From a virus (lineage: Duplodnaviria; Caudoviricetes): a stretch of 64,000 nucleotides of DNA. A program made the translations under genes and the position numbers. The stretch is taken from the IMG/VR virus record IMGVR_UViG_3300042885_001472. The stretch is one strand, 5' to 3'. Under the pieces are notes generated by a model. That model saw only the letters and a list, made by a program, of their open reading frames with translations. It had not been told where the DNA came from and searched no databases. Below are positions 11,442-27,368 of the stretch, one piece after another; the first letter of the stretch is position 1; every line of letters starts with the position of its first letter.

Positions 11442-13100
11442 ATGAGTAATTTTAGAACACAAGTTAATTTTTCGTCACAGATAAAAGAATATCCAAATAC
11501 TGATGGTACACTTTCAGGTTCTGTTAATGTCCAACAATATACTATTTTAGGGACAGACTATTTAGACCTACCTTTAGGGTTAGATAATACTAGTACCGGT
11601 ATTACTGCGACTTACGGACCAATAATTAATGGGACTTTCACAGGTACTACCGGTAGTACCACTTTTTATTTTAATGATAGTAATATGGATATTGCCGGAC
11701 CTTATTTATCCGCGATAACGGCTTCTAATAGTGGACTAACTCAACATGTTGACGCTTTTAGTATAACTAATACTATAATCGTTGATGGTAATAGTTTTGA
11801 CATCTATTATAGTGGTGTGTCTTTTGATATGACACCAACAAACCTAGATGAATATTCTCCAGGTGAGTTTTCAGGGGGAACTTTCACTAATGTATTAAAC
11901 TACCTTTCCGGAACAACATACCCTTGGTGGTTTTTAAAGTCTGGTTCAACAACTTGGAATGAAGTTAAGGGTAGAACCCAAACAGATCGTTTAACCATTA
12001 TTGATGGGGCGAATACCGATTACGTCTTAATATCATCTAACTCAAATGGTGACGCTATTTGGCGACCATTGGACTTTGTAATTTCTGGGGGTTGTTTATC
12101 GGATGTTTGTATTAAAGGAATTTTATCTTTGATAAGAGATTTATATATAAAAGGTTTAACATTTGGTACTGGTGGTAGTGATGTCGGCTCAACTGGTACA
12201 ACATATGTGACAAATACAGCTGGAGGTAAGGATGTTTTATTTTATAACTCCACTGGTATTAGAAATACTGGTTTTGGTAGTGAAGTGTTAAGTGCTAATA
12301 CTATAGGTTATTCCAATACTGGTCTTGGTACTTACGCACTTAAAAGTAATAGTACTGGTATTGATAATACTGCCATTGGTACTTATTCATTAGAATCAAA
12401 CACTATAAATGGTGGTAATACGGCCATTGGTTCTGGTTCTTTACAAAGTAATACTATTGGTTATGGTAATACTGGAATAGGTTATAATTCTATACCTAGT
12501 AATATTGATGGTTATGTTAATACTGGGTTAGGGATATATGCGTTACATGATAATGTTAGTGGTTATGAAAATGTTTCTGCTGGTCACTACTCTTTATTCC
12601 AAAATACTACTGGTTATCAAAATACTGGTATAGGGAATCAATCTATAACTTCTAATACCACTGGTAACATAAATACTGGTATTGGTTATGGTGCTTTAGG
12701 TGGTAATACAATAGGTTTAGGTAACACATCAATAGGTTGGGGTTCTGGACTTAGTAACACTACAGGTAATTATAACACTTTTTTAGGTTTAGGTAGTGAT
12801 TGTATCACCACCAACTTAACAAACGCTACCGCTGTAGGTTATAACGCCATTGTTGATCAAAACGATTCAATGGTATTAGGTAATGGTGTTATAAATGTTG
12901 GTATAGGTATAAGTACACCAACCTCAACATTACATTTAATAGGTCTTAGTGGTTTTAGTCAATTAAGATTGGAAATTCAATATACACCAACTGGTACTAC
13001 AGATAGTAATGGTAGTCAAGGTGATACAGCTTGGGATGATAGTTACATATACATCAAAACATCAGTTGGCTGGAAAAGATCTGGTTTATCAACATTCTAA
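11442..13100 (+). CDS. Tail fibre/adhesin with 14-aa NTxxG repeats (YadA-head-like beta-roll)
   Basis: About 13 repeats of NT(A/G)xGxx(A/S)LxxNTxG; VGIGISTP motif; C-terminal WDDSYIYIK...WKR. Confidence 0.75.
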   Translation: MSNFRTQVNFSSQIKEYPNTDGTLSGSVNVQQYTILGTDYLDLPLGLDNTSTGITATYGPIINGTFTGTTGSTTFYFNDSNMDIAGPYLSAITASNSGLTQHVDAFSITNTIIVDGNSFDIYYSGVSFDMTPTNLDEYSPGEFSGGTFTNVLNYLSGTTYPWWFLKSGSTTWNEVKGRTQTDRLTIIDGANTDYVLISSNSNGDAIWRPLDFVISGGCLSDVCIKGILSLIRDLYIKGLTFGTGGSDVGSTGTTYVTNTAGGKDVLFYNSTGIRNTGFGSEVLSANTIGYSNTGLGTYALKSNSTGIDNTAIGTYSLESNTINGGNTAIGSGSLQSNTIGYGNTGIGYNSIPSNIDGYVNTGLGIYALHDNVSGYENVSAGHYSLFQNTTGYQNTGIGNQSITSNTTGNINTGIGYGALGGNTIGLGNTSIGWGSGLSNTTGNYNTFLGLGSDCITTNLTNATAVGYNAIVDQNDSMVLGNGVINVGIGISTPTSTLHLIGLSGFSQLRLEIQYTPTGTTDSNGSQGDTAWDDSYIYIKTSVGWKRSGLSTF

Positions 13101-17822: not shown

Positions 17823-18491
17823 ATGAGTTTTCATTTTTCACTAAAAATAGTAACAGATGGATTAGTTCTTTATTTAGATGGAGCTAACCCTAAATCATAT
17901 GTGAGTGGTTCTACTATTTGGAATGATATTAGTAAAAATAGTAATAATGGTACATTAACCAATGGACCAACATTTGATACTAGTAATAGGGGATGTATTA
18001 TATTTGATGGTGTTAATGATTATGTGGGGGTAAATAATTTTATAGGAAATCTTAACACATTTTCTGTTAATCATTTTATTTACTTAAACACATCACAAAA
18101 TGGTAAAACAATTTTTAGTAACTTTGGTAATGATAATAATGGATGGGTTACTGGGATTAGTGATAGTCAAACTAATGTTATTAAGTTTTATTTAGGTAAT
18201 ATTGTTCATTTGTATTCTAATACAGTATTACAAAACTTAATATGGTATAGTATTACAATTACTTATAATAATGGGAACCCTAAAATATATATTAATGGTG
18301 TTGAAGACAATTCTAGTTCTACTGTATTGACACCATCTTCTAGTTATTTTGGGAATGATATCGGTAGACTTGGTGATGGTTCACAACACTTTAATGGGGG
18401 AATATCTAACATTCAAGTCTATAATCGTGCTCTAACACCCTCAGAAGTACTTCAAAATTATAATAGTTTAAAAGGTAGATTTGGTTTATAA
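17823..18491 (+). CDS. LamG/ConA-like lectin domain protein (paralog 1)
   Basis: DGLVLYLDGANPKSY, FDGVNDYV, IYING, FNGGISNIQVYNRALT..EVLQNYN. Confidence 0.85.
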   Translation: MSFHFSLKIVTDGLVLYLDGANPKSYVSGSTIWNDISKNSNNGTLTNGPTFDTSNRGCIIFDGVNDYVGVNNFIGNLNTFSVNHFIYLNTSQNGKTIFSNFGNDNNGWVTGISDSQTNVIKFYLGNIVHLYSNTVLQNLIWYSITITYNNGNPKIYINGVEDNSSSTVLTPSSSYFGNDIGRLGDGSQHFNGGISNIQVYNRALTPSEVLQNYNSLKGRFGL

Positions 18492-19207
18492 TGTCAGGAA
18501 AAGTAAGTTCAAAAATAGTAACAGATAGTTTAGTTTTAAATTTAGATGGGGCTAACCCTAAATCATATGTGAGTGGTTCTACCATTTGGAATGATTTAAC
18601 ATACTATAAAAACGATGGGGTTTTAACTAATAATCCAACATATAATTCAAATAATGGTGGAAGTATTGAATTTGATGGTACTAACGATTATGTTAATTGT
18701 GGAAATTCAAATTCTTTAAAATTTTTTGATGGTGATTCATTTACCATATGTTCGTGGGTTAAACCTAATCCTACAATGTCTGCTGGGGTTATTGTTCAAC
18801 ATGGGGGTGAACCAAATAGTGCCACTGGGTTTGCTCTTTATTTAGCATTTGGATATGTTGAGTTCGCTAAATCTAATGTCGCAAACACTGGACAAAATAT
18901 TACAACAACACCTTTTAATAATAATGAATGGAATCATATTTGTTGTTCAATAAAATATTCTGGTTTATCTGGTCAAATTAAATTCTATGTAAATGGTATT
19001 TTAAAATCAACATTTAATGGTTGGAGTGCTAACCCAAATATATCTGACTACACTAGACCATTAAATGTAGGTAGGTCTGAAACTGACGCCTTTTTCAATA
19101 ACCTTCCATTTAAAGGGAATATATCCAACGTGTCAATATACAATAGAATATTATCATCTCAAGAAGTTCTTCAAAATTATAACGCTTTAAAAAATAGATT
19201 TATTTAA
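18491..19207 (+). CDS. LamG/ConA-like lectin domain protein (paralog 2)
   Basis: FDGTNDYV, FTICSWVK, WNHICC, FYVNG, FKGNISNVSIYNRILS. Confidence 0.85.
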   Translation: MSGKVSSKIVTDSLVLNLDGANPKSYVSGSTIWNDLTYYKNDGVLTNNPTYNSNNGGSIEFDGTNDYVNCGNSNSLKFFDGDSFTICSWVKPNPTMSAGVIVQHGGEPNSATGFALYLAFGYVEFAKSNVANTGQNITTTPFNNNEWNHICCSIKYSGLSGQIKFYVNGILKSTFNGWSANPNISDYTRPLNVGRSETDAFFNNLPFKGNISNVSIYNRILSSQEVLQNYNALKNRFI

Positions 19208-19210
19208 AAC

Positions 19211-19483
19211 ATGGAAACACAAGATTACGAAAACAGAAAATTTATGATATTCAATATGTCAGAATTACCAATGATTGATTTTACACAAGTATGTGAAACA
19301 TCTCAAGATACATTAAGGTTTTCCGTTGACGGAACTAAAACATTTGTTAAATGGGATTCAATAGAAATTCCCTCATCAGTAGATTCCCTAACAACAAAAG
19401 AGGGATTGTACACATATGAAGAAATGTTAACAATATTATCCACACCAGAATGGACTAATCCAAATCCATTTCCAATTATATGA
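19211..19483 (+). CDS. Small conserved-looking phage protein, possible fibre accessory
   Basis: IDFTQVCETSQDTLRFSVDGTKTFVKW...YTYEEMLTIL..PEW. Confidence 0.7.
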   Translation: METQDYENRKFMIFNMSELPMIDFTQVCETSQDTLRFSVDGTKTFVKWDSIEIPSSVDSLTTKEGLYTYEEMLTILSTPEWTNPNPFPII

Positions 19484-20217
19484 GTACAATAGGTAATTGG
19501 CGAGGTCCAAATATAATTAAAGATGGTTTATTTTTATATTTAAATCCAAATTCACCTAATTCATTTTATGATACATCAAGTACTATAATAAAAGATATTA
19601 GTGGTAATGGTAATAATGGTACATTAATAAACGGACCAACATATAATTCAAATAATGGTGGTAGTATAGTATTAGATGGTACTAACGATTACCTTAATAC
19701 TAACATAGGAATTAAACCAACCTCAACCACAATAGAAGTTGTTTGTAGTATAATAAGTAATACTTCAATTAAAACTGGTGGTAATACAGTGGCTCAATAT
19801 ATTGTCTTTAGACAAAATACAAGAACTTCTAATTTTGAGGCTGTTGTTCTTAATTATATACAATCTGGGTTAACAGGGTATTTTGAAGGTACTATGTCTT
19901 CCTCTGGTGGGTTAGCTAAACAAGTGTCAACCCCATTAATAAATCTTAATCAAATTTATTCACTCACAGCTACTTACGATTCAAATAACATTACACTATA
20001 TCTAAACGGACAATTTGTATCACAAACATCAACCGGTTTTCCAATTGATTATAATTTAGTTCACACATATAAATTGGGTAGAGCTGACGCTATAGGTCAA
20101 ACATTTGATGGTTATCTTAACGGAAAAATATATGATGTAAGATTTTACGATAGGACACTTACATCTTCAGAAATCCTTCAAAACTATAATTCAACAAAAT
20201 CAAGATTCGGATTATAA
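19480..20217 (+). CDS. LamG/ConA-like lectin domain protein (paralog 3)
   Basis: DGLFLYL, LDGTNDY, LYLNG, LNGKIYDVRFYDRTLT..EILQNYN. Confidence 0.85.
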   Translation: MSTIGNWRGPNIIKDGLFLYLNPNSPNSFYDTSSTIIKDISGNGNNGTLINGPTYNSNNGGSIVLDGTNDYLNTNIGIKPTSTTIEVVCSIISNTSIKTGGNTVAQYIVFRQNTRTSNFEAVVLNYIQSGLTGYFEGTMSSSGGLAKQVSTPLINLNQIYSLTATYDSNNITLYLNGQFVSQTSTGFPIDYNLVHTYKLGRADAIGQTFDGYLNGKIYDVRFYDRTLTSSEILQNYNSTKSRFGL

Positions 20218-20274: not shown

Positions 20275-23127
20275 ATGGGAAATGAATTTGTAATTAAAAA
20301 TGGTTTTATATCACAAGGAACATCTTATATAACTAATGAGGGTAAACTTGGTATTGGTACTCCATTACCCTCTGAAAAATTAGAAGTTAGTGGTAAAACA
20401 AAAACAACTAATTTACAAGTAACATATGGTTCTAGTGAAGGTTATATATTAACCGCTTTAGATAATCAAGGTAATGTAGGTTGGTTACCATTTAATAATG
20501 TTAATATCACTGAATTAGCTCCAGTAATATCAATAGTATCCACACCAATAAGTGGTAGTACTGATGGTGATAGATATTTGATAAGTGGGGGTACTGGTAT
20601 ATGGAGTGGAAAAACTAATTATATTGCCGAGTGGTTAAATCCTGATTGGGTATATACCACTGGTACTACAGATAACACAGTTTTTGTTACCGATACATTA
20701 ACAACTTATAGATATGATGGTACTAATTGGGTACCATATAGGGGTACTGTTATTTTACAAAATGGTAATAAATTAAATACCTCTATTAATATAGGTAGTA
20801 ACGATAATCAAGATATTAATTTTAGAGTTAGTGGTAGTACTAAAATGACTATCACAAAAAGTGGTAATGTTGGTATTGGTACTACTACGCCAGTAAGTTT
20901 ATTATCTGTTTATCATACTCGTACATCAACACCGATGGGTTCGACAATTGATGCAATTAATATGGGTGGACAATACTCAAATACTGCTGGACAGAACCCA
21001 AAAATTATAATATATGACGATGGTGGTTCTGTCATGGGATTTGGTGGTTCTGCGGGTCAATTAGATTACATAACCCCAAGCAGTTCTCACAGTCACGTAT
21101 TTTACACTGGTACAGTAAAGAGAGTTGTTTTAGGAGGAGATGGAAATAATGGTTTTAACATAGCATCACCAACAGCAAAAATTCATGTTGTTGGTAGTAG
21201 TTCCACATCTTCAAATTATGCTTTAAAAGTAGAAAATAGCGCAAATGCTAATTTATTTAATGTTAGAAATGATGGTAATTCTACGTTAAATGGATTAAAT
21301 ATTGGAAAAGGTCCATCACAAATAGTTAGTAATGTTGTATTTGGTGTCAATGCTTTAAGTGCTAACACGACGGGGGATAACAATTTTGCTTTTGGGTTTG
21401 AAACTTTATTAAAAAACATAAGTGGTGACAACAACGTAGGGATAGGACATAATGTATTAAGACAAAATATTTTAGGGAATGATAATGTCGGTATTGGTTC
21501 TCAAACCTTATTGGTTTCTTTAGGACATCAAAATACTGCGATAGGTGCATATTCTTTGATGGATTTAACTTCTGGTACACAAAACACCGCTGTTGGTAAT
21601 CAATCTATGCTTGTAATGACTACTGGAACTTTAAACACTTCTTTAGGGTATTATACGTTACGTTCTAATATATCAGGACAAAGAAATGTGGCGGTTGGAT
21701 GGAACGCTTTAAACTCAGCTTTAAATAGTTTTAACGTTGGATTAGGATATAGAGCTGGTGCGAATATTACGATAGGTGAATATAATACAGCCATTGGTAC
21801 AGATACTGCACCAACATTAACATCTGGAAATTATAACACTATTATTGGAAGAGATACAGGAAGAGGTATAACTACAGGTTCTAGAAATACAATCATAGGT
21901 GCATCTACATTGGGCTTGGACTCAGGTTTAAATGATACTATCATATTAGCAAAAGGTGATGGTGTTATTAGATATATTTGTACTTCATCAGGTAATACAG
22001 GGATTGGTACGATATTACCAACAACTAAACTAGATATTCTTTCGGATACAACAAATGATTCGGGTTTACGGCTTAGAAACTTAACAAGTGCTTCACCATC
22101 TACTAACGGTAAACCAATTGGCGTTGATGCTAACGGTAAAGTGGTTGCTATTGAAAATACTTGGCAATCAATTAATGCAGATACCGAAATTTACACAGAA
22201 TCAAATACAGATGTAGTGGCAACAGGCATGACTATTACACCACCCGCAGGAACTTATAAAGTAGATTTTAATGGAGAATACCAAGTGATAGCGGGTAACG
22301 TAGTTGCTTTGGCTCAATTAGATTTACAGACGTTATATTTATACTTAAATAATTTAACACCAACATCATCTCATGGTTTAACTTTTGGTAGTGGAGAAAT
22401 TTTAGGACCAGGAGTTTACACCGTTGCAGGAGCAGGTTCAGTTGCTGGTACATTAACTTTAAACGGTGGCGCCAATGATTTGTTTGTAATAAGAGTAGCA
22501 GGAGCAATTAACACAGGTGCTGCAACTACTATAAGTCTTACAGGAGGAGCAACATCCGCAAATGTATTTTTTGTTGCAACAGGTGGCGCAATTGGTATTG
22601 GAGCAAATAACAATATAGTTGGTAATTATATATCTAACGGTTCAGCTGCTGCATTGGGTGCTAATTGTGTTTTTAATGGCAGATTACTTACTACAGGTGG
22701 AGCATTAGCATTTGAATCAGGAGTACTTACTAAACCAACAACGGCAAGTGTTGTTAATATGGGTATTTTAGAAACTTTTCTTTGTTATACAAACGCTGGA
22801 AATGTTAGCAATACAGCGTTGGCTCAAATCACAGGTGATTTAGGAACATCATCTGGGGCAGTTTCAATATTTGTAAGCAGCACATTTAATGGAAACATTT
22901 ATGACAACTCTCAACAGTTTGGTAACAGTAGTAATTTTAGTTTATACGAAGGAGCAACTATGGTTTCAAATTCAAACAGACTTAAAGAAATAGATGCTTA
23001 CACCAGAGATATTATACTAAGCGGCATTGCAACGGTAGATGGCACACAGGCTATAACTGTTAGGTGGCGCACAAATATTGGAAGAGTATATTTAAATAAC
23101 AGAATATTAACAATAGTAAAATTATAA
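20275..23127 (+). CDS. Multimodular tail fibre: DUF2793-like, GNVGIG repeats, NTAxG beta-roll, C-terminal jelly-roll with inserted DUF3494-like domain
   Basis: DGDRYLI..GTGIWSGK..YIAEW (DUF2793-like); four G(N/K)xGIG motifs; 14-aa repeats; see the domain feature at 22291. Confidence 0.8.
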   Translation: MGNEFVIKNGFISQGTSYITNEGKLGIGTPLPSEKLEVSGKTKTTNLQVTYGSSEGYILTALDNQGNVGWLPFNNVNITELAPVISIVSTPISGSTDGDRYLISGGTGIWSGKTNYIAEWLNPDWVYTTGTTDNTVFVTDTLTTYRYDGTNWVPYRGTVILQNGNKLNTSINIGSNDNQDINFRVSGSTKMTITKSGNVGIGTTTPVSLLSVYHTRTSTPMGSTIDAINMGGQYSNTAGQNPKIIIYDDGGSVMGFGGSAGQLDYITPSSSHSHVFYTGTVKRVVLGGDGNNGFNIASPTAKIHVVGSSSTSSNYALKVENSANANLFNVRNDGNSTLNGLNIGKGPSQIVSNVVFGVNALSANTTGDNNFAFGFETLLKNISGDNNVGIGHNVLRQNILGNDNVGIGSQTLLVSLGHQNTAIGAYSLMDLTSGTQNTAVGNQSMLVMTTGTLNTSLGYYTLRSNISGQRNVAVGWNALNSALNSFNVGLGYRAGANITIGEYNTAIGTDTAPTLTSGNYNTIIGRDTGRGITTGSRNTIIGASTLGLDSGLNDTIILAKGDGVIRYICTSSGNTGIGTILPTTKLDILSDTTNDSGLRLRNLTSASPSTNGKPIGVDANGKVVAIENTWQSINADTEIYTESNTDVVATGMTITPPAGTYKVDFNGEYQVIAGNVVALAQLDLQTLYLYLNNLTPTSSHGLTFGSGEILGPGVYTVAGAGSVAGTLTLNGGANDLFVIRVAGAINTGAATTISLTGGATSANVFFVATGGAIGIGANNNIVGNYISNGSAAALGANCVFNGRLLTTGGALAFESGVLTKPTTASVVNMGILETFLCYTNAGNVSNTALAQITGDLGTSSGAVSIFVSSTFNGNIYDNSQQFGNSSNFSLYEGATMVSNSNRLKEIDAYTRDIILSGIATVDGTQAITVRWRTNIGRVYLNNRILTIVKL
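22291..22905 (+). other. DUF3494 (ice-binding protein family)-like domain, apparently circularly permuted
   Basis: AQLDLQTLYLYL helix; ILGPGVY...TLTLNGG..DLFVIRVAGAINTG...ISLTGGATSANVFF...FNGRLLT...VLTKP; then the segment normally N-terminal: NMG..ETF....AGNVSNT....ITGDLGT. Confidence 0.8.
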
Positions 23128-23131
23128 AATC

Positions 23132-23278
23132 ATGGAACCAATTACTTTAGAACAACTATTTATTTTAGTAGAATCATTAAAAAATGATATTAATGAAATT
23201 AAAACAGAAATTAAAACAACACAAGAACTAATATCTAAAATTCAAACACGTCACTTTAATAAAATTATAAACCCATGA
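23132..23278 (+). CDS. 48-aa coiled-coil protein (not in the ORF track)
   Basis: MEPITLEQLLFLVESLKNDINEIKTEIKTTQELISKIQTRHFNKIINP; heptad pattern; ATGA overlap with the next gene. Confidence 0.6.
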   Translation: MEPITLEQLFILVESLKNDINEIKTEIKTTQELISKIQTRHFNKIINP

Positions 23279-23730
23279 AAATCATTTCAAAAAACACACT
23301 AAACACTCAATTTAATACAACGTTGGCAAATATCACTCAACAAGGTGTAGTTGATGTTAATAATTTATATTCTAATTTATTAGCTCAACCATTAGTTGGT
23401 GGCGCAGTTTCAAATGCTGGCACAAATATTATTGTTGGAGATATTGGCACAAATGCAGGAGCAATTACAGGTTTTGAAAGTGTTACTTTGAGTGGTGTAA
23501 TTTACCCACCAAATCAAGGCTCATCAAACGTTCAAGTTTCAATTTATGTTGATGGAGTAATAGTACCAACATCTACAAGAGAGCACACAAATGTTATCAC
23601 TAAAGAAGATATAGCAATTGCAGATGTGGTTACATTAGCCGTTGGTCAGGTAGTAACAGCAAAGGTGTTAAACTCCATAGGTATTTCAAGATTTTACAAT
23701 AGAATTTTAACTATGAATTTAATAAACTAA
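23275..23730 (+). CDS. Shortened paralog of the fibre tip: DUF3494 helix, one coil, jelly-roll
   Basis: VVDVNNLYSNLLAQP followed directly by GGAVSNAGTNIIVGDIGTNAGAITGF; C-terminal FYNRILTMNL resembles YLNNRILTIVKL. Confidence 0.7.
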   Translation: MKIISKNTLNTQFNTTLANITQQGVVDVNNLYSNLLAQPLVGGAVSNAGTNIIVGDIGTNAGAITGFESVTLSGVIYPPNQGSSNVQVSIYVDGVIVPTSTREHTNVITKEDIAIADVVTLAVGQVVTAKVLNSIGISRFYNRILTMNLIN

Positions 23731-24158: not shown

Positions 24159-27100
24159 ATGGAATTAAGTAAAGAAGAAATTAAGGATTTTTTGGAGGGT
24201 AGAGACCCACAAAAGTATATTATTGGTATTGAATCAACCTACGATCAAAATTTTGTTAATCTTATTATAAATGATCCCATTACTGGGAAACGTATTGAAA
24301 AACATAAGTTTAAACCATTCCTTTGGATGAAAAGTCCGGATATGGATAAGTTTTTTAAAGGTGATCGTAGACTTATCAAAACTAAGTTAAGAGAACACAT
24401 GATTACAATTACACCCCTTAAATTAGAGGATGAAAATGGTAATATCCACAAACGTTTAGAAAATGGTTTTAAGTTCTTAGTTCAAACCAGAGGTAGTTAT
24501 AGAAATATTACTAACTTTTTTAAAGAATCCGGTATTGATATTCAAAAGGAAGAAAATAGGAAGGGTTTTTTAACCCTTGGCCCTACAGAGCAATTCTTAA
24601 TACAAAGTGGTAAAAGATTATTTAAAGGGTTTGATGATTACGCGGATTTAGTTAGATTTTCTTTTGATATTGAAACCACATCTTTAACACCAGAAACCGG
24701 TAGAATTTTACAAATTGGTATGAAAGATAATCGTGGTTTTGAACACGTATTAGATATTGATAGTGATGATGAAGAACGAAACGCGATTTATACATTTTTT
24801 AATATTATTGATGAATTAAAACCAGATATTATTTGTGGTTATAATTCAGAGAACTTTGACTGGACATATATTTTAGGTCGTTGTGAATTACTTAATTTAG
24901 ATTATAAAAAAATTACTAAGACACTTAAGAATGGTATGCCACTTTATCGTAAACAAGCTACTTTAAAATTAGGTGGTGAGATGGAGTATTATCAACAAAC
25001 TGTATTATGGGGTTATAACGTTATTGATGTGTGGCACGCGGTTAGAAGAGCTAAAGCCATTAATTCAAACATCAAAGAAACTGGTTTGAAGTATATTACA
25101 AAATATTCTAAAATCGCTAAACCTAATCGTGTATATGTTGGTCACGATAAGATCGCTAAAATTTGGGTAGATGAACGTCCTTACTTATTTAACGAATCTG
25201 ATGGTAAGTATATGGTAGTTCCGGAAGATAAAACTGGTTATGAAGGATGGGAAGAAGTGGATGGTAAATTTATAATTAAGAAATATCTAATAGATGATTT
25301 ATGGGAAACAGAACAAGTTGACTACAAATATAATCAAGCGACATTTTTATTGTCTAAATTAGTTCCATCAACATTACAAAGAACCTCTACAATGGGTACA
25401 GCGGCCTTATGGAAAGTATTGATGTGTACTTGGTCATATGAGAATGGTTTAGCTATACCTGATTATCAACCTAAAGAAAAATTTCCTGGTGGATTATCTC
25501 GTTTATTAAGAATTGGTTTCGTACCAAATGTAGTTAAATTAGATTATGGATCACTTTACCCTTCAATACAATTAACTCACGATGTATTCCCAGAAGTTGA
25601 TATTACCGGTGCGTTAAAAGGTATGTTAACTTATTTATTCGCGGAACGAGATTTATATAAGAATCTAATGAAAAAAGCTCAAAGAGAAGGGGACGATAAA
25701 GGGGCTGATATGTTTGATAAGAAACAATTACCAATTAAAATTCTTAATAACTCTAACTTTGGTTCATTATCAGCCCCAGATGTATTTCCTTGGGGTGATA
25801 CTAACATTGGTGCGATGATCACTTGTACTGGTAGACAATATCTACGATTGATGATTAAATTCTTTATGGATAAGGGGTTTGAACCAATAGTAGGTGATAG
25901 TGTGACGTATGACACACCTGTTTATATTAAATATGGTGATGATATATTAGACATTTTACCAATTTCAGATTTATTTGATATAACTGGTACTATTGAAGGT
26001 GATCAATTAAGAGATTACTCAGATAAACCATATAAGATATTAACTAGAAGTGGTTGGAAAGATATTAAGTATGTTTATAGACATGGTACAGAAAAACAAA
26101 TTAAATCAATTTCAATAAAAGATAGGGGTAATGTTGATGTGACGGAAGACCATTCACTTTTTCAAAATGGGGTTGAAATAAAACCTTCATCATTAAAAAT
26201 TGGTGAATATATTGATGTTTATGAAAATGGGGATGTCAGTCAAGGTTTAATCACTAATATATCTGATATTGACAACCCATGTCCAAATAATTTTGTCTAT
26301 GATGTTTCAACAGAAGATGGGACATTTATTATCGGTAAGGGTAAAATAATCGCCCATAATACCGATGGTTTCAACTTTAAGATACCAGAAAACGCTAAAG
26401 AATTAACATACACTGGTTTAGGTACTCACTTAACAGTTGTTAAAGATAAAATATATAATGGTATTGAAGCGGCTTTAGCTGAGTTCAATGAAAAGTATAT
26501 GAGAGGTTTTATGAAGTTAGGTATTGATGAGGTAATTGAATCAACTATTAATTTATCAAGAAAAAATTATGCGGATTTAATTGATGGTGAAGTTAAGTTA
26601 GTTGGTAATACAATTAAATCGGCTAAGATGCCAAAGTACATTGAAGATTTTTTAGATAAAGCGATTAGAATGTTATTAGAAGGTAATGGTAATGAATTCA
26701 TTGAACTTTATTATGAGAATGTTGAAATGATTTATAACCAAGAAATCCCATTACTTAAAATCGCTAGTAAAGGGAAAGTAAAACAAACATTAGAAAGTTA
26801 TAAAGAAAATACTAAAAGGAAGAATAAAGCCGGTAATCCTATGCCACGTCAGGCTCATATGGAACTTTTATTAAAAGAAAATATTAATGTTAACCTTGGT
26901 GACACAATATATTATATTAATACCGGTACTAAAAAATCTCACGCTGATGTTAAAGCTAAAAAGAATAAAGATGGTACTACTGACATTGAATTTAATTCAT
27001 CGTTAATCTTAACTAATCAAATTGAGAATAATCCAGATTTAAAGGGTGAGTATAATGTCACTAAATATTTAGTGGCTTTTAACACTAGGATTGAACCATT

Positions 27101-27368
27101 AATTGTTTGTTTTAGTCCGGAAATTAGAAGTGATATTTTAATTGATAATCCATCAAAAAGACAATATTTTACCAAGAAACAACTTGAACTATGTTCTGGT
27201 TTCCCAACAGATCCTATTGATCAGGATACATTAGATGATGTTTTTGTTATGGAACAAAAAGAAATTGACTTTTGGGAAAAGGTTGGTGCTAATCCGGAAT
27301 ATATGTATATCACGGAAATTGAACCTACTGAAATTATTAATGAACCAACTGATACAGAATACTTTTAG
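24159..27368 (+). CDS. polB: Family B DNA polymerase with intein
   Basis: Exonuclease FDIET, GYNSENFD; motif A LDYGSLYPS; motif B KILNNSNFG; motif C VGD/TDG split by the intein; RKNYA. Confidence 0.97.
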   Translation: MELSKEEIKDFLEGRDPQKYIIGIESTYDQNFVNLIINDPITGKRIEKHKFKPFLWMKSPDMDKFFKGDRRLIKTKLREHMITITPLKLEDENGNIHKRLENGFKFLVQTRGSYRNITNFFKESGIDIQKEENRKGFLTLGPTEQFLIQSGKRLFKGFDDYADLVRFSFDIETTSLTPETGRILQIGMKDNRGFEHVLDIDSDDEERNAIYTFFNIIDELKPDIICGYNSENFDWTYILGRCELLNLDYKKITKTLKNGMPLYRKQATLKLGGEMEYYQQTVLWGYNVIDVWHAVRRAKAINSNIKETGLKYITKYSKIAKPNRVYVGHDKIAKIWVDERPYLFNESDGKYMVVPEDKTGYEGWEEVDGKFIIKKYLIDDLWETEQVDYKYNQATFLLSKLVPSTLQRTSTMGTAALWKVLMCTWSYENGLAIPDYQPKEKFPGGLSRLLRIGFVPNVVKLDYGSLYPSIQLTHDVFPEVDITGALKGMLTYLFAERDLYKNLMKKAQREGDDKGADMFDKKQLPIKILNNSNFGSLSAPDVFPWGDTNIGAMITCTGRQYLRLMIKFFMDKGFEPIVGDSVTYDTPVYIKYGDDILDILPISDLFDITGTIEGDQLRDYSDKPYKILTRSGWKDIKYVYRHGTEKQIKSISIKDRGNVDVTEDHSLFQNGVEIKPSSLKIGEYIDVYENGDVSQGLITNISDIDNPCPNNFVYDVSTEDGTFIIGKGKIIAHNTDGFNFKIPENAKELTYTGLGTHLTVVKDKIYNGIEAALAEFNEKYMRGFMKLGIDEVIESTINLSRKNYADLIDGEVKLVGNTIKSAKMPKYIEDFLDKAIRMLLEGNGNEFIELYYENVEMIYNQEIPLLKIASKGKVKQTLESYKENTKRKNKAGNPMPRQAHMELLLKENINVNLGDTIYYINTGTKKSHADVKAKKNKDGTTDIEFNSSLILTNQIENNPDLKGEYNVTKYLVAFNTRIEPLIVCFSPEIRSDILIDNPSKRQYFTKKQLELCSGFPTDPIDQDTLDDVFVMEQKEIDFWEKVGANPEYMYITEIEPTEIINEPTDTEYF
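25899..26360 (+). mobile_element. Mini-intein (154 aa, no homing endonuclease) in polymerase motif C
   Basis: GD|SVTYDTPVYIK...VDVTEDHSLF (block B)...VYDVSTEDGTF (block F)...IIAHN|TDG. Confidence 0.95.

What the first reader, a model, noticed from the sequence alone, without database searches (positions are those of the whole stretch)
22291..22905. Phage tail-fibre tip carries a circularly permuted ice-binding (DUF3494-type) domain
Seen: the fibre C-terminus reads helix (AQLDLQTLYLYLNNLTP), then solenoid (GPGVY..TLTLNGG..LFVIRVAG..LTGGATSANVFF..NGRLLT..VLTKP), a short linker (TTASVV, about 22738-22755), then NMGILETFLCYTNAGNVSNTALAQITGDLGTSSGAVSIF..NGNIY. Established: DUF3494 ice-binding proteins begin with that last segment (xLGxAxxFAIL...ISNTG.T.ITGDIG), then the helix, and end at ...GRLL...V.KP. 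In solved structures the N-terminal coil stacks beside the C-terminal coil. Inference: the order here is a circular permutation that makes the coil order sequential and puts both termini near the helix, so the domain can be inserted into a jelly-roll (TWQSINAD...YKVDFNGEY | insert | SNFSLYEG...RILTIVKL). It could derive from a tandem bacterial DUF3494 gene. A virion that adsorbs to ice, or binds a host or surface ligand with this fold, would be unusual; I know of no described example, but I could not search.
Basis: partly seen in the sequence, partly recalled or inferred. Interest (0 to 1): 0.88.

Follow-up and report, generated by a model that had tools for sequence, protein, structure and literature searches.

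The report
Rearranged ice-binding fold on phage fibre tip
A large freshwater phage ends one tail fibre in a three-fold knob from which a rearranged "ice-binding protein" domain projects; the same swappable tip occurs on many other phage fibres and on secreted Bacteroidota proteins, and whether it grips host cells or ice is untested.

Summary
Observation confirmed; interpretation supported for structure and evolution, while function remains open.

- **The gene.** ORF 20275-23127 (950 aa) is a tail-fibre protein. Its last 330 aa form one conserved module.
- **The module.** A TNF/C1q-like jelly roll (aa 626-673 plus 880-950) is interrupted by a DUF3494 (PF11999, 71.7 bits) domain.
- **The permutation.** The usual N-terminal coil (aa 830-879) follows the helix and solenoid (aa 674-823). 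The insert aligns without a break across the domain boundary of tandem DUF3494 proteins (IBPv, PDB 5UYT, E 4e-34; about 40% identity to Bacteroidota T9SS proteins).
- **Structure.** An AlphaFold model (pLDDT 91) matches solved ice-binding proteins (Z 17-21) and TNF-like lectins (Z 15.7). A predicted trimer uses only jelly-roll contacts.
- **Insertion.** Fibres with the same knob but no insert exist.
- **Spread.** The module ends 77 of 79 proteins found, on unrelated shafts. It also occurs in signal-peptide proteins on Bacteroidota chromosomes, one from a MAG labelled sea ice.
- **Ligand.** The small-residue row of the IBPv ice-binding face is conserved. My odds are host surface about 0.5 and ice about 0.2.

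I found no paper describing the permutation or a fibre-borne DUF3494. The scan has noted this module before on other phage DNA (e1-3458178, e1-5321587).

The parts
20275..23127 (+). Tail-fibre gene, 950 aa (P0001)
   Evidence: Single ORF. PHROG tail spike, tail fibre and virion structural families match. tblastn hits annotated tail fibres over aa 158-580.
20536..20733 (+). N-terminal DUF2793 / tail-fibre anchor-type domain (aa 88-153)
   Evidence: PF10983, 30.8 bits against a cut-off of 27. phrog_7049 tail fiber protein and phrog_5363 cover aa 87-166.
21085..22014 (+). Central repeat-rich shaft (aa ~271-580)
   Evidence: phrog_6002, phrog_4636 and phrog_23837 match. It is 30-39% identical to tail fibre or spike genes of Roseobacter, Pelagibacter, cyanobacterial and Bacillus phages. 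It is 35% identical to window ORF 11442..13100.
22150..22293 (+). Jelly-roll N-terminal half (aa 626-673; strands A, A', B, C; motif TITPPAGTY)
   Evidence: Together with aa 880-950 it superposes on whole TNF-like lectin, C1q and BclA domains: Z 15.7, rmsd 1.7 A, 113 aa. Residues 10-17 and 43-49 of the module lie in the predicted trimer interface.
22294..22353 (+). DUF3494 long alpha-helix (aa 674-693), first element of the insert
   Evidence: The model has a helix at module 57-73. It aligns to the helix of solved IBPs, starting at model residue 55.
22354..22743 (+). DUF3494 beta-solenoid coils (aa 694-823), ending ...NGRLLT...VLTKPTT
   Evidence: PF11999 profile 55-203 matches. VIA-align gives Z 17-21, rmsd 1.2 A over ~145 aa, running to the C-terminus of canonical IBPs, for example 7bwy 54-203 of 203.
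22744..22761 (+). Linker (aa 824-829), equivalent to the inter-domain linker of tandem DUF3494 proteins
   Evidence: It falls within the unbroken alignment to 5UYT positions 198-217 and to the bacterial tandem proteins.
22762..22911 (+). Relocated coil (aa 830-879), homologous to the canonical N-terminal coil (xLGxAxxF...SNTG.T.ITGDxGT)
   Evidence: It aligns to 5UYT 6-43 and 218-268. It aligns to the N-terminal coils of both repeats of bacterial tandems at E to 1e-12. The paralogous coils of P0002 and P0047 hit PF11999 profile 4-61 and 5-38. pLDDT is 92-95.
22912..23124 (+). Jelly-roll C-terminal half (aa 880-950; strands D-H; ...NNRILTIVKL)
   Evidence: Structural match as for the N-terminal half. 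Interface residues are 279-299 and 323-331. It is shared with insert-free fibre knobs L020 and L024.
23275..23730 (+). 151-aa remnant of a second tip gene (P0002): helix start, relocated coil and jelly-roll C-half, with the solenoid deleted
   Evidence: It is 65% identical over 105 aa and 57% over its first 44 aa to P0047. P0047 is an intact 355-aa second module gene lying just after the fibre gene in related phage contigs L007 and L008. P0047 residues 101-247 and 1-56 are missing.

Best explanation
The last ~330 aa of this tail fibre form its far-end adhesive knob.

Shown by sequence and predicted structure:
- A TNF/C1q-like jelly roll carries, in the loop between strands C and D, a complete DUF3494 (IBP-1 fold) beta-solenoid.
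- The solenoid is circularly permuted. It runs helix, then coils 2-6, then a short linker, then the coil that is N-terminal in every described family member.
- The new ends therefore lie at the old coil-1/helix junction, side by side. This lets the domain sit in a loop.

Predicted:
- The knob trimerises through the jelly-roll inner sheet only, so three solenoids are left free.

Inferred:
- The C-D loop lies at the end of the jelly roll opposite the chain termini, so the solenoids point away from the shaft.
- The knob is an exchangeable cassette shared by many phage fibres and by secreted Bacteroidota proteins. The permutation most simply arose from a tandem DUF3494 gene by loss of the first coil and the last helix-solenoid.

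Function (inferred):
- The flat face built on a conserved alanine row and a Ser/Thr/Gly row is the binding surface.
- On a virion its most likely ligand is a repetitive surface polysaccharide or similar envelope structure of a Bacteroidota host. This would give adsorption in the manner of other fibre tips.
- Ice is a live alternative ligand.
For: **Identity and order**
- PF11999 scores 71.7 bits.
- 5UYT matches at E 4e-34, with one alignment spanning helix and solenoid of domain A, the linker and the N-coil of domain B.
- The same pattern appears at ~40% identity in 12 or more T9SS tandem proteins.

**Fold**
- The AF2 model has pLDDT 91.
- Model residues 55-204 match canonical IBPs from the helix to their C-terminus, Z 17-21, rmsd 1.2 A.
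- Model residues 7-54 plus 261-331 match whole TNF-like lectins, BclA and C1q, Z 12-15.7.

**Insertion**
- Fibre ends L020 and L024 share TITPPAGTY...NRxLxIxR but lack about 205 aa.

**Trimer**
- ipSAE is 0.84 in three runs; the best of 3 controls is 0.00.
- That mark was reached by 20 of 30 proteins solved as pairs of one chain and by 1 of 23 solved as single chains.
- Runs agree in at least 82% of contacts, and the partner's pLDDT is at least 86.
- All confident contacts lie in module residues 10-17, 43-49, 279-299 and 323-331.
- TNF-like trimers are solved, so this pass may reflect likeness. My own alignment and three copies differ from the calibration.

**Cassette**
- 79 of 193 proteins held carry the whole module, and 77 of these end within 11 aa of the C-terminus. 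Their N-terminal parts range from 12 to 1400 aa.
- Homology to the closest relatives starts at aa 566-633 only.

**Fibre context**
- PHROG tail families match.

**Host clue**
- The nearest non-module relatives carry Por_Secre_tail.
- 5 of 7 GTDB genomes with the module are Bacteroidota MAGs.

**Binding face**
- The positions equivalent to the IBPv row Ala41/212/193/Leu174/Ala147 are Asn843, Ala810, Ala791, Ala772 and Ala744 in P0001.
- Across the 26 module proteins these are Ala in 15, 26, 26, 23 and 21.
- The +2 row is almost wholly Ser/Thr/Gly/Ala.
Against: - No ligand was tested, so the host-receptor reading rests on where fibre tips usually act.
- The same knob sits on signal-peptide proteins encoded on bacterial chromosomes. 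These have no 'host' to bind, so the ancestral ligand may be environmental.
- The putative ice-binding rows are conserved across modules recovered from freshwater and marine samples. A receptor face that tracks different hosts would be expected to vary more.
- That the relocated coil stacks on the last solenoid coil is inferred from homology and high pLDDT. I could not read coordinates.
- The alanine row may be conserved for folding alone.
- The tree does not show a tandem donor.
Confidence: 0.55

Rival explanations
1. Ice is the selected ligand. The three exposed solenoids attach the virion to ice (lake ice cover, frazil ice, sea-ice brine channel walls), holding it where ice-associated Bacteroidota hosts live. 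This would parallel bacterial DUF3494 ice adhesins and phage adherence to mucus through capsid Ig-like domains.
For: - The nearest solved relative is IBPv, a proven antifreeze protein (PMC5673226).
- Four of its five small-residue row positions are Ala here. The rows are conserved across the family whatever the habitat.
- A secreted bacterial copy lies in a Crocinitomicaceae MAG whose record name contains 'HBSea_ice'.
- A distant phage member occurs in runs labelled brine metagenome as well as marine ones.
- This phage has several other fibre-like genes that could serve host recognition.
Against: - The window's stretch was recovered from 24 lake or freshwater plankton runs spanning 2016-2024. 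Nothing ties these to ice.
- Bacterial DUF3494 proteins occur in icy and ice-free habitats, and their original substrate is unclear (PMC11645318).
- Ice-binding faces have no sequence signature (PMC5673226).
- The row-1 residue of the relocated coil is Asn, not Ala, and IBPv loses activity when bulkier residues are placed in this row.
- I could not check what kind of brine the 'brine' runs sampled.
Confidence: 0.2
2. The tip binds a non-host, non-ice environmental substrate, such as algal or bacterial exopolymer or particle surfaces. It would be inherited unchanged from secreted Bacteroidota fibre adhesins.
For: - The same module occurs on secreted bacterial proteins, beside T9SS-CTD genes at the loci checked in three MAGs or metagenomes.
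- One such protein has an N-terminus matching the Bdellovibrio mosaic adhesive trimer fibre family, NF053851.
- Pfam's Ice_binding domain is listed among adhesive domains of fibrillar adhesins (PMC8286594).
Against: No substrate is indicated by any result. Fibre tips of tailed phages normally recognise the host.
Confidence: 0.15
3. It is a cryoprotective auxiliary gene product, released to protect the infected host from ice. This is how viral PF11999 genes were read in Arctic viromes.
For: PMC11515562 reports three viral PF11999 genes and proposes host cryoprotection.
Against: - The domain is fused in frame to a 620-aa fibre with tail-fibre N-terminal and shaft families. It has no signal peptide and lies in a block of fibre-like genes.
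- It is nested inside a trimerising knob.
Confidence: 0.04
4. There is no true permutation. Either a canonical domain has been misread, or the C-terminal 'coil' resembles the N-terminal coil by chance.
For: Pfam's HMM does not report the isolated coil of P0001 or of seven relatives.
Against: - Nothing upstream of the helix matches the N-terminal ~55 profile positions. That space is filled by jelly-roll strands.
- The coil aligns to the N-coils of 5UYT and of 12 tandem proteins.
- Paralogous coils do hit PF11999 profile 4-61 and 5-38.
- The arrangement is conserved in 79 proteins.
Confidence: 0.02

Closest known systems
IBPv, the two-domain DUF3494 antifreeze protein of Flavobacteriaceae isolate 3519-10 (PDB 5UYT; PMC5673226)
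   Same: It is the best sequence and structure match: E 4e-34; Z 21, rmsd 1.2 A. Helix, solenoid, linker and next N-terminal coil are collinear with the phage insert. The alanine row of the ice-binding face is largely retained.
   Different: IBPv is a free secreted protein with two complete domains in canonical order. The phage unit equals one domain-length window shifted by about 55 residues, nested in a jelly roll, and predicted to be displayed three-fold on a fibre. Its ice activity is unknown.
Canonical single-domain DUF3494 / IBP-1 fold proteins (FfIBP 4NU2, AnpIBP 7BWY, ColAFP 3WP9, TisAFP 3VN3, LeIBP 3UYU) and the non-canonical DUF3494s of PMC11645318
   Same: All share the triangular right-handed beta-solenoid with a flanking long helix. 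Z is 17-19 over ~145 aa.
   Different: Every described canonical and non-canonical member keeps the discontinuous order: first coil, helix, reverse stack. Here the first coil is moved to the end, so sequence order equals stacking order.
SfIBP_1 of Shewanella frigidimarina (PDB 6BG8), a DUF3494 domain carried with Ig-like domains
   Same: A DUF3494 domain is held at the end of an extended multi-domain stalk. Z is 17.0, and the molecule name is 'Ig domain protein, group 2'. From my own knowledge it is regarded as an ice adhesin.
   Different: It is monomeric, in canonical order, on a bacterial cell rather than a virion, and not nested in another domain.
TNF/C1q-like trimeric knobs: lectins BC2L-C-Nt (2WQ4) and PLTL (9IB7), BclA (1WCK), C1q heads, phage Sf6 needle knob (3RWN), phi812 central spike knob (9EUL)
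   Same: The two jelly-roll halves superpose on whole domains: Z 11.7-15.7 for the lectin, BclA, C1q and phi812 entries, and a weaker Foldseek match to 3RWN. The predicted trimer uses the same inner-sheet strands A, C, F and H. Some family members have collagen-like stalks, as BclA and C1q do.
   Different: No Pfam C1q or TNF match was found. The C-D loop holds a 206-aa foreign domain, which I did not see in any listed structure.
Virus-encoded PF11999 'ice-binding-like' genes of Arctic viromes (PMC11515562) and giant-virus DUF3494 proteins (Hyperionvirus, BFVD)
   Same: These are DUF3494-family genes on viral genomes.
   Different: Those were read as host-cryoprotection auxiliary genes or are uncharacterised, and neither a fibre location nor a permutation was reported. 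Here the domain is part of a virion fibre tip.
Bdellovibrio mosaic adhesive trimer (MAT) chimeric fibres (NCBIfam NF053851)
   Same: The bacterial module protein P0008 has an N-terminus matching this family. The concept of trimeric fibres with interchangeable adhesive tips matches the cassette behaviour seen here.
   Different: The match is below the family cut-off (36 against 60 bits) and lies in a bacterial relative, not in the window's protein. Tips of MAT fibres described so far are not DUF3494, as far as I know.

Membership tests
DUF3494 / Pfam PF11999 Ice_binding (IBP-1 fold) | HMM match above the curated gathering score | tested here: met
   71.7 bits (79.9 for aa 620-950 alone) against a cut-off of 28.7.
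DUF3494 / Pfam PF11999 Ice_binding (IBP-1 fold) | Triangular right-handed beta-solenoid with a long alpha-helix alongside | tested here: met
   The predicted model (pLDDT 91) superposes on 25 solved IBP entries at Z 16.5-21, rmsd 1.2-1.7 A. This is a prediction, not an experiment.
DUF3494 / Pfam PF11999 Ice_binding (IBP-1 fold) | Canonical segment order: N-terminal coil, helix, remaining coils (discontinuous stack) | tested here: not met
   The order here is helix, coils, linker, then the N-terminal-type coil. It is a circular permutant of the family fold.
DUF3494 / Pfam PF11999 Ice_binding (IBP-1 fold) | Flat face with an aligned row of small residues and a row of Thr/Ser (IBPv ice-binding site) | tested here: inconclusive
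   By alignment, row 1 is N843-A810-A791-A772-A744 and row 2 is S-A-A-G-N. Both are conserved in the family. Flatness was not measured, and no sequence rule predicts activity.
DUF3494 / Pfam PF11999 Ice_binding (IBP-1 fold) | Ice-binding activity (thermal hysteresis, recrystallisation inhibition, ice shaping) | not testable with these tools
   This needs recombinant protein.
NCBIfam NF045625 IBP_CFB (equivalog of the Flavobacterium-type ice-binding protein) | Score above the equivalog cut-off of 400 bits | tested here: not met
   41.7 bits, covering aa 663-807 only.
TNF/C1q-like trimeric jelly-roll knob | Complete ten-strand jelly roll superposable on TNF-like or C1q domains | tested here: met
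   Model residues 7-54 plus 261-331 against PLTL, BC2L-C-Nt, BclA and C1q: Z 11.7-15.7, 107-117 aa aligned, rmsd 1.7-2.6 A.
TNF/C1q-like trimeric jelly-roll knob | Homotrimer through the inner sheet | tested here: met
   Prediction only. ipSAE is 0.84 against a best control of 0.00, and contacts are confined to strands A, C, E/F and H. The result may reflect likeness to solved trimers.
TNF/C1q-like trimeric jelly-roll knob | Sequence membership of Pfam C1q or TNF families | tested here: not met
   No such Pfam hit at E<=1. An Atlas cluster with the same architecture carries PF26696 PTL_trimer (Pfam 38.1), which is not in the Pfam copy I could search.
Phage tail fibre / receptor-binding protein | Homology of N-terminal and shaft parts to known tail-fibre families, in a block of structural genes | tested here: met
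   phrog_4636, phrog_7049, phrog_6002 and DUF2793 match. tblastn hits annotated tail fibres. Neighbouring ORFs match virion structural PHROGs.
Phage tail fibre / receptor-binding protein | Presence in the virion and a role in adsorption | not testable with these tools
   This needs an isolate or virion proteomics. The genome is known only from metagenomes.
Circular permutation by duplication and truncation | Both segments homologous to the canonical domain, swapped in order, and collinear with a natural tandem repeat | tested here: met
   In addition, 94 representative proteins have a stretch running from the helix into the next N-coil.
Circular permutation by duplication and truncation | Phylogenetic derivation from an identified tandem ancestor | tested here: inconclusive
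   The module cores form 3-4 supported clades in a polytomy with a clade holding both repeats of the sampled bacterial tandems.

The most novel reading that the evidence does not exclude
Tailed phages of cold fresh and marine waters use a trimeric, circularly permuted DUF3494 tip to stick the virion itself to ice, a 'phage adherence to ice' strategy. They would share this tip with secreted ice adhesins of their Bacteroidota hosts. The fold's rearrangement would then be an adaptation for three-fold display at a fibre tip.
Probability: 0.2. Interest if true: 0.9.

Novelty: new variant of a known kind. Interest (0 to 1): 0.62.

Why it matters
DUF3494 is the most widespread microbial ice-binding fold. 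The 2024 survey of canonical and non-canonical members that I read (PMC11645318) describes one odd feature as kept by all of them: coils that are out of order in the sequence. That survey also calls the fold's original substrate unclear.

- **A natural permutant.** Here the coils are in order, nested in a trimerising knob, and recur in dozens of sequence clusters. This is a new structural variant and a ready test of how the fold tolerates rewiring.
- **A handle on the substrate question.** Because the knob sits on phage fibres, its ligand can be found with ordinary phage-host and ice assays. A host-glycan ligand would give the fold a proven non-ice function. An ice ligand would be the first virion known to adsorb to ice.
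- **A caution for annotation.** Viral 'ice-binding-like' hits read as cryoprotective auxiliary genes may in some cases be fibre tips.
- **A new exchangeable tip class.** For phage biology, this tip is shared with bacterial surface fibres.

Tried and rejected
- **GenBank phage searches.** Megablast of 24 kb of the window found no match. tblastn of the tip module and of a bacterial tandem DUF3494 also found none. BLAST's low-complexity filter may hide these Ala/Gly/Thr-rich sequences.
- **Own genome.** None is held for this window.
- **Pfam on the isolated relocated coil.** No hit for P0001 or seven relatives. The piece is too short for HMMER's filters. Only the P0047 and P0002 coils hit.
- **Synechococcus phage S-SKS1.** PMC11515562 names it as the main viral relative, but I found no PF11999 match. 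The tool's control genomes also gave none, so this is weak.
- **Tree of solenoid cores.** It did not resolve a donor or the monophyly of the module.
- **AlphaFold DB clusters.** No entry covers the whole module; the best TM by query is 0.43.
- **PF26696 PTL_trimer.** It is absent from the local Pfam copy, and no paper was found.
- **Habitat look-ups.** JGI sample numbers appear in no paper. The brine-virome paper lists no sample ids. I could not establish whether the 'brine' runs are sea-ice brine.
- **Cluster look-up.** It gave no source names.
- **Literature.** I found no paper combining DUF3494 with circular permutation, or Ice_binding with phage fibres. The eCIS tail-fibre catalogue mentions ice binding only in a reference.
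- **Not attempted.** I could not read model coordinates to measure coil stacking or the flatness of the face.


Full report
**1. The gene**

The finding lies in ORF 20275..23127 (+), a 950-aa protein.
- Its N-terminal part carries DUF2793 and matches PHROG tail-fibre families. Its middle matches tail-spike and virion structural PHROGs.
- tblastn finds annotated tail fibres and spikes of marine and Bacillus phages over aa 158-580 only.
- Neighbouring ORFs are further fibre-like and LamG-type virion proteins, followed by a family-B DNA polymerase.
- The window has about 29% G+C. It matches no GenBank phage at the DNA level, and no whole genome is held.
- The 3.5-kb stretch recurs almost letter for letter in 24 freshwater or lake-water metagenome runs from 2016 to 2024. 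This is an uncultured freshwater phage.

**2.

Coordinates 22291-22905 are aa 673-877, and the quoted strings are there in the stated order.
- PF11999 Ice_binding matches at E 9e-20, 71.7 bits against a cut-off of 28.7. The match covers only profile positions 38/55-203, that is, the helix and later coils.
- Against PDB sequences the best hit is the two-domain antifreeze protein IBPv (5UYT), E 4e-34.
- Numbering the last 331 aa (P0001 620-950) as module residues 1-331, residues 57-260 align in one piece to chain positions 56-268. That stretch runs through the helix and solenoid of domain A, the inter-domain linker, and the N-terminal coil of domain B. It stops just before domain B's helix.
- The same coil also aligns to domain A's N-terminal coil.
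- Twelve or more Bacteroidota proteins with tandem DUF3494 repeats and a T9SS sorting domain show the same unbroken alignment at about 40% identity.
- The 58-aa coil piece alone finds the N-terminal coils of both their repeats, at E down to 1e-12.
- The segment order is therefore swapped relative to one canonical domain, and collinear with a window across two. This is the classical signature of a circular permutation.
- The canonical order, and the adjacency of first and last coils, are stated in PMC11645318. They also follow from the order of the IBPv ice-binding row (PMC5673226).

**3. Structure**

I modelled the last 331 aa with an alignment of 26 homologues.
- The AlphaFold model has mean pLDDT 91.
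- Model residues 55-204 superpose on solved ice-binding proteins from the start of their helix to their last residue. Z is 17-21, rmsd 1.2 A over about 145 aa; for example, 7BWY residues 54-203 of 203.
- Model residues 7-54 together with 261-331 superpose on entire TNF-like lectins (PLTL, BC2L-C-Nt), BclA, C1q heads and a phage spike knob. Z is 11.7-15.7 (Foldseek gives the same families).
- The DUF3494 unit is therefore inserted between jelly-roll strands C and D.
- Two viral contigs carry fibres ending in the same knob (TITPPAGTY ... NRxLxIxR) with a roughly ten-residue loop in place of the ~205-aa insert. This is the 'empty site'.
- A three-copy prediction scored ipSAE 0.84 in all three runs, against 0.00 for the best of three controls.
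  - That mark was reached by 20 of 30 proteins solved as pairs of one chain and by 1 of 23 solved as single chains.
  - Runs agree in at least 82% of contacts, and the partner's pLDDT is at least 86.
  - All confident contacts are jelly-roll residues and none lies in the insert.
  - Since TNF-like trimers are solved, the pass may reflect likeness. My own alignment and three copies also differ from the calibration.
- By the alternation of loops in a jelly roll, the C-D loop lies opposite the chain termini. The three solenoids should therefore point away from the shaft. This step is inference.

**4. A family, not a singleton, and not only in phages**

A profile of the module searched against 1.84 billion representatives found 12,830 DUF3494-type proteins.
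- Of the 193 proteins I then held, 79 contain the whole module. In 77 of them it ends within 11 residues of the C-terminus, behind N-terminal parts of 12 to 1400 aa.
- IMG/VR holds about 14 viral contigs with the full module. The contexts I examined are phage-like.
- Homology between this fibre and its closest relatives (62-64% identity) starts only at aa 566-633 in four of the five (338 in the fifth, which also shares the shaft repeats). The tip is a cassette on unrelated shafts.
- The module also occurs on bacterial chromosomes.
  - In MAGs labelled Chitinophagaceae, Crocinitomicaceae ('HBSea_ice') and Bacteroidota, it ends proteins flanked by housekeeping genes.
  - Of these bacterial proteins, the two I translated carry Sec signal peptides. 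A T9SS-CTD gene lies alongside in the Chitinophagaceae and Crocinitomicaceae MAGs and in two syntenic metagenome contigs.
  - One such protein has an N-terminus resembling Bdellovibrio mosaic adhesive trimer fibres.
- ESM Atlas clusters with the same architecture are labelled viral (57 members) or mostly Bacteroidota (100 members). The latter carry a Pfam 38.1 family, PF26696 PTL_trimer, that I could not inspect.
- AlphaFold DB clusters and BFVD hold no entry that covers the whole module. The only viral DUF3494 folds in BFVD come from a giant virus.

**5. Origin**

Tandem DUF3494 proteins are abundant: 94 of the held proteins have a stretch running from a helix into the next N-terminal coil. 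The intermediate needed for permutation by duplication and truncation is therefore common.
- A maximum-likelihood tree of the solenoid cores gives three or four well-supported module clades in a polytomy. The polytomy also includes a clade that unites both repeats of the sampled bacterial tandems.
- Those tandems are therefore not the direct donors. Neither the direction of transfer between bacteria and phages nor a single origin is resolved.

**6. Function**

Nothing here measures binding. Four observations bear on it.
- (a) The domain is the exposed far end of a fibre, where tailed phages carry receptor-binding domains.
- (b) By alignment to IBPv, the small-residue row of its mutagenesis-defined ice-binding site corresponds to Asn843, Ala810, Ala791, Ala772 and Ala744. 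Across the 26 family members these columns are Ala in 15, 26, 26, 23 and 21. The neighbouring row is almost entirely Ser/Thr/Gly/Ala.
- (c) The family spans freshwater, marine and 'brine' samples, and includes a MAG labelled sea ice.
- (d) Bacterial DUF3494 proteins also occur in ice-free habitats, their original substrate is called unclear, and ice-binding faces have no sequence signature.

I therefore commit to an adhesive tip that uses the flat Ala and Ser/Thr face. My rough odds are:
- 0.5 for a host envelope polysaccharide or similar;
- 0.2 for ice;
- 0.15 for another environmental substrate.

A cryoprotective auxiliary-gene role, as proposed for viral PF11999 genes in Arctic viromes, does not fit a domain fused into a fibre knob.

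**7. The companion ORF**

ORF 23275..23730 (151 aa) is a remnant of a second tip gene.
- In related contigs L007 and L008 a 355-aa gene with a complete permuted module directly follows the fibre gene.
- The window's copy is 57-65% identical to it but lacks its first 56 residues and the whole solenoid, residues 101-247.
- It lacks jelly-roll strands A and B and part of strand C, so it cannot form the knob on its own.

**8. Novelty and prior notice**

In the searchable literature I found no description of a permuted DUF3494, of a DUF3494 nested in a TNF-like knob, or of one on a phage fibre.
- Within this scan, the same kind of tip has been noted on other phage DNA. Entry e1-3458178 has a follow-up reading that agrees with mine. 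Entries e1-5321587 and e1-5321579 also describe it.
- A canonical-order DUF3494 was noted in a soil phage's tail hub (e1-5327236).
- These are not independent evidence.
- I class the finding as a new variant of a known kind.

Noticed in passing
window 23275-23730 (and 23132-23278): The 151-aa ORF is a truncated, internally deleted copy of a second permuted-module gene that is intact (355 aa) in related phage contigs L007 and L008. The 48-aa ORF in front of it has no family match and replaces the missing N-terminus.
   Followed up: yes
window 24159-27368: The family-B DNA polymerase (1069 aa) appears to carry a mini-intein inside its DTD motif. The sequence reads ...IVGD|SVTYDT...IIAHN|TDGFNF. 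Pfam Intein_splicing gives a weak hit at aa 631-689 (E 0.004, below cut-off).
   Followed up: partly
L027 5513-8409, L029 5513-8133, L030 2115-4738, L035 4431-7699: On bacterial chromosomes the module protein lacks a T9SS sorting domain of its own (a Sec signal peptide was seen in the L035 and L034 proteins). At the loci listed here it lies directly beside a gene that has one (160-aa or 537-aa Por_Secre_tail proteins). This may be a carrier or anchor partner.
   Followed up: no
L020 4429-6387, L024 5134-6396: These phage fibres end in the same TNF-like knob without any insert. They could serve as natural controls for what the DUF3494 insert adds.
   Followed up: partly
window 11442-13100 and 17823-20217: A second fibre-like ORF shares the central repeat region with the studied fibre (35% identity over ~250 aa). 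The first and third of three adjacent ~220-245-aa ORFs, which share their N-terminal sequence, match virion structural PHROGs. The phage therefore has several candidate host-recognition proteins.
   Followed up: partly
ESM Atlas cluster (427-aa representative) matched to P0001 623-943: A 100-member cluster, mostly Bacteroidota, has the same architecture and carries Pfam 38.1 family PF26696 'PTL_trimer'. This family is absent from the Pfam copy available here, and I could not learn what it describes.
   Followed up: partly
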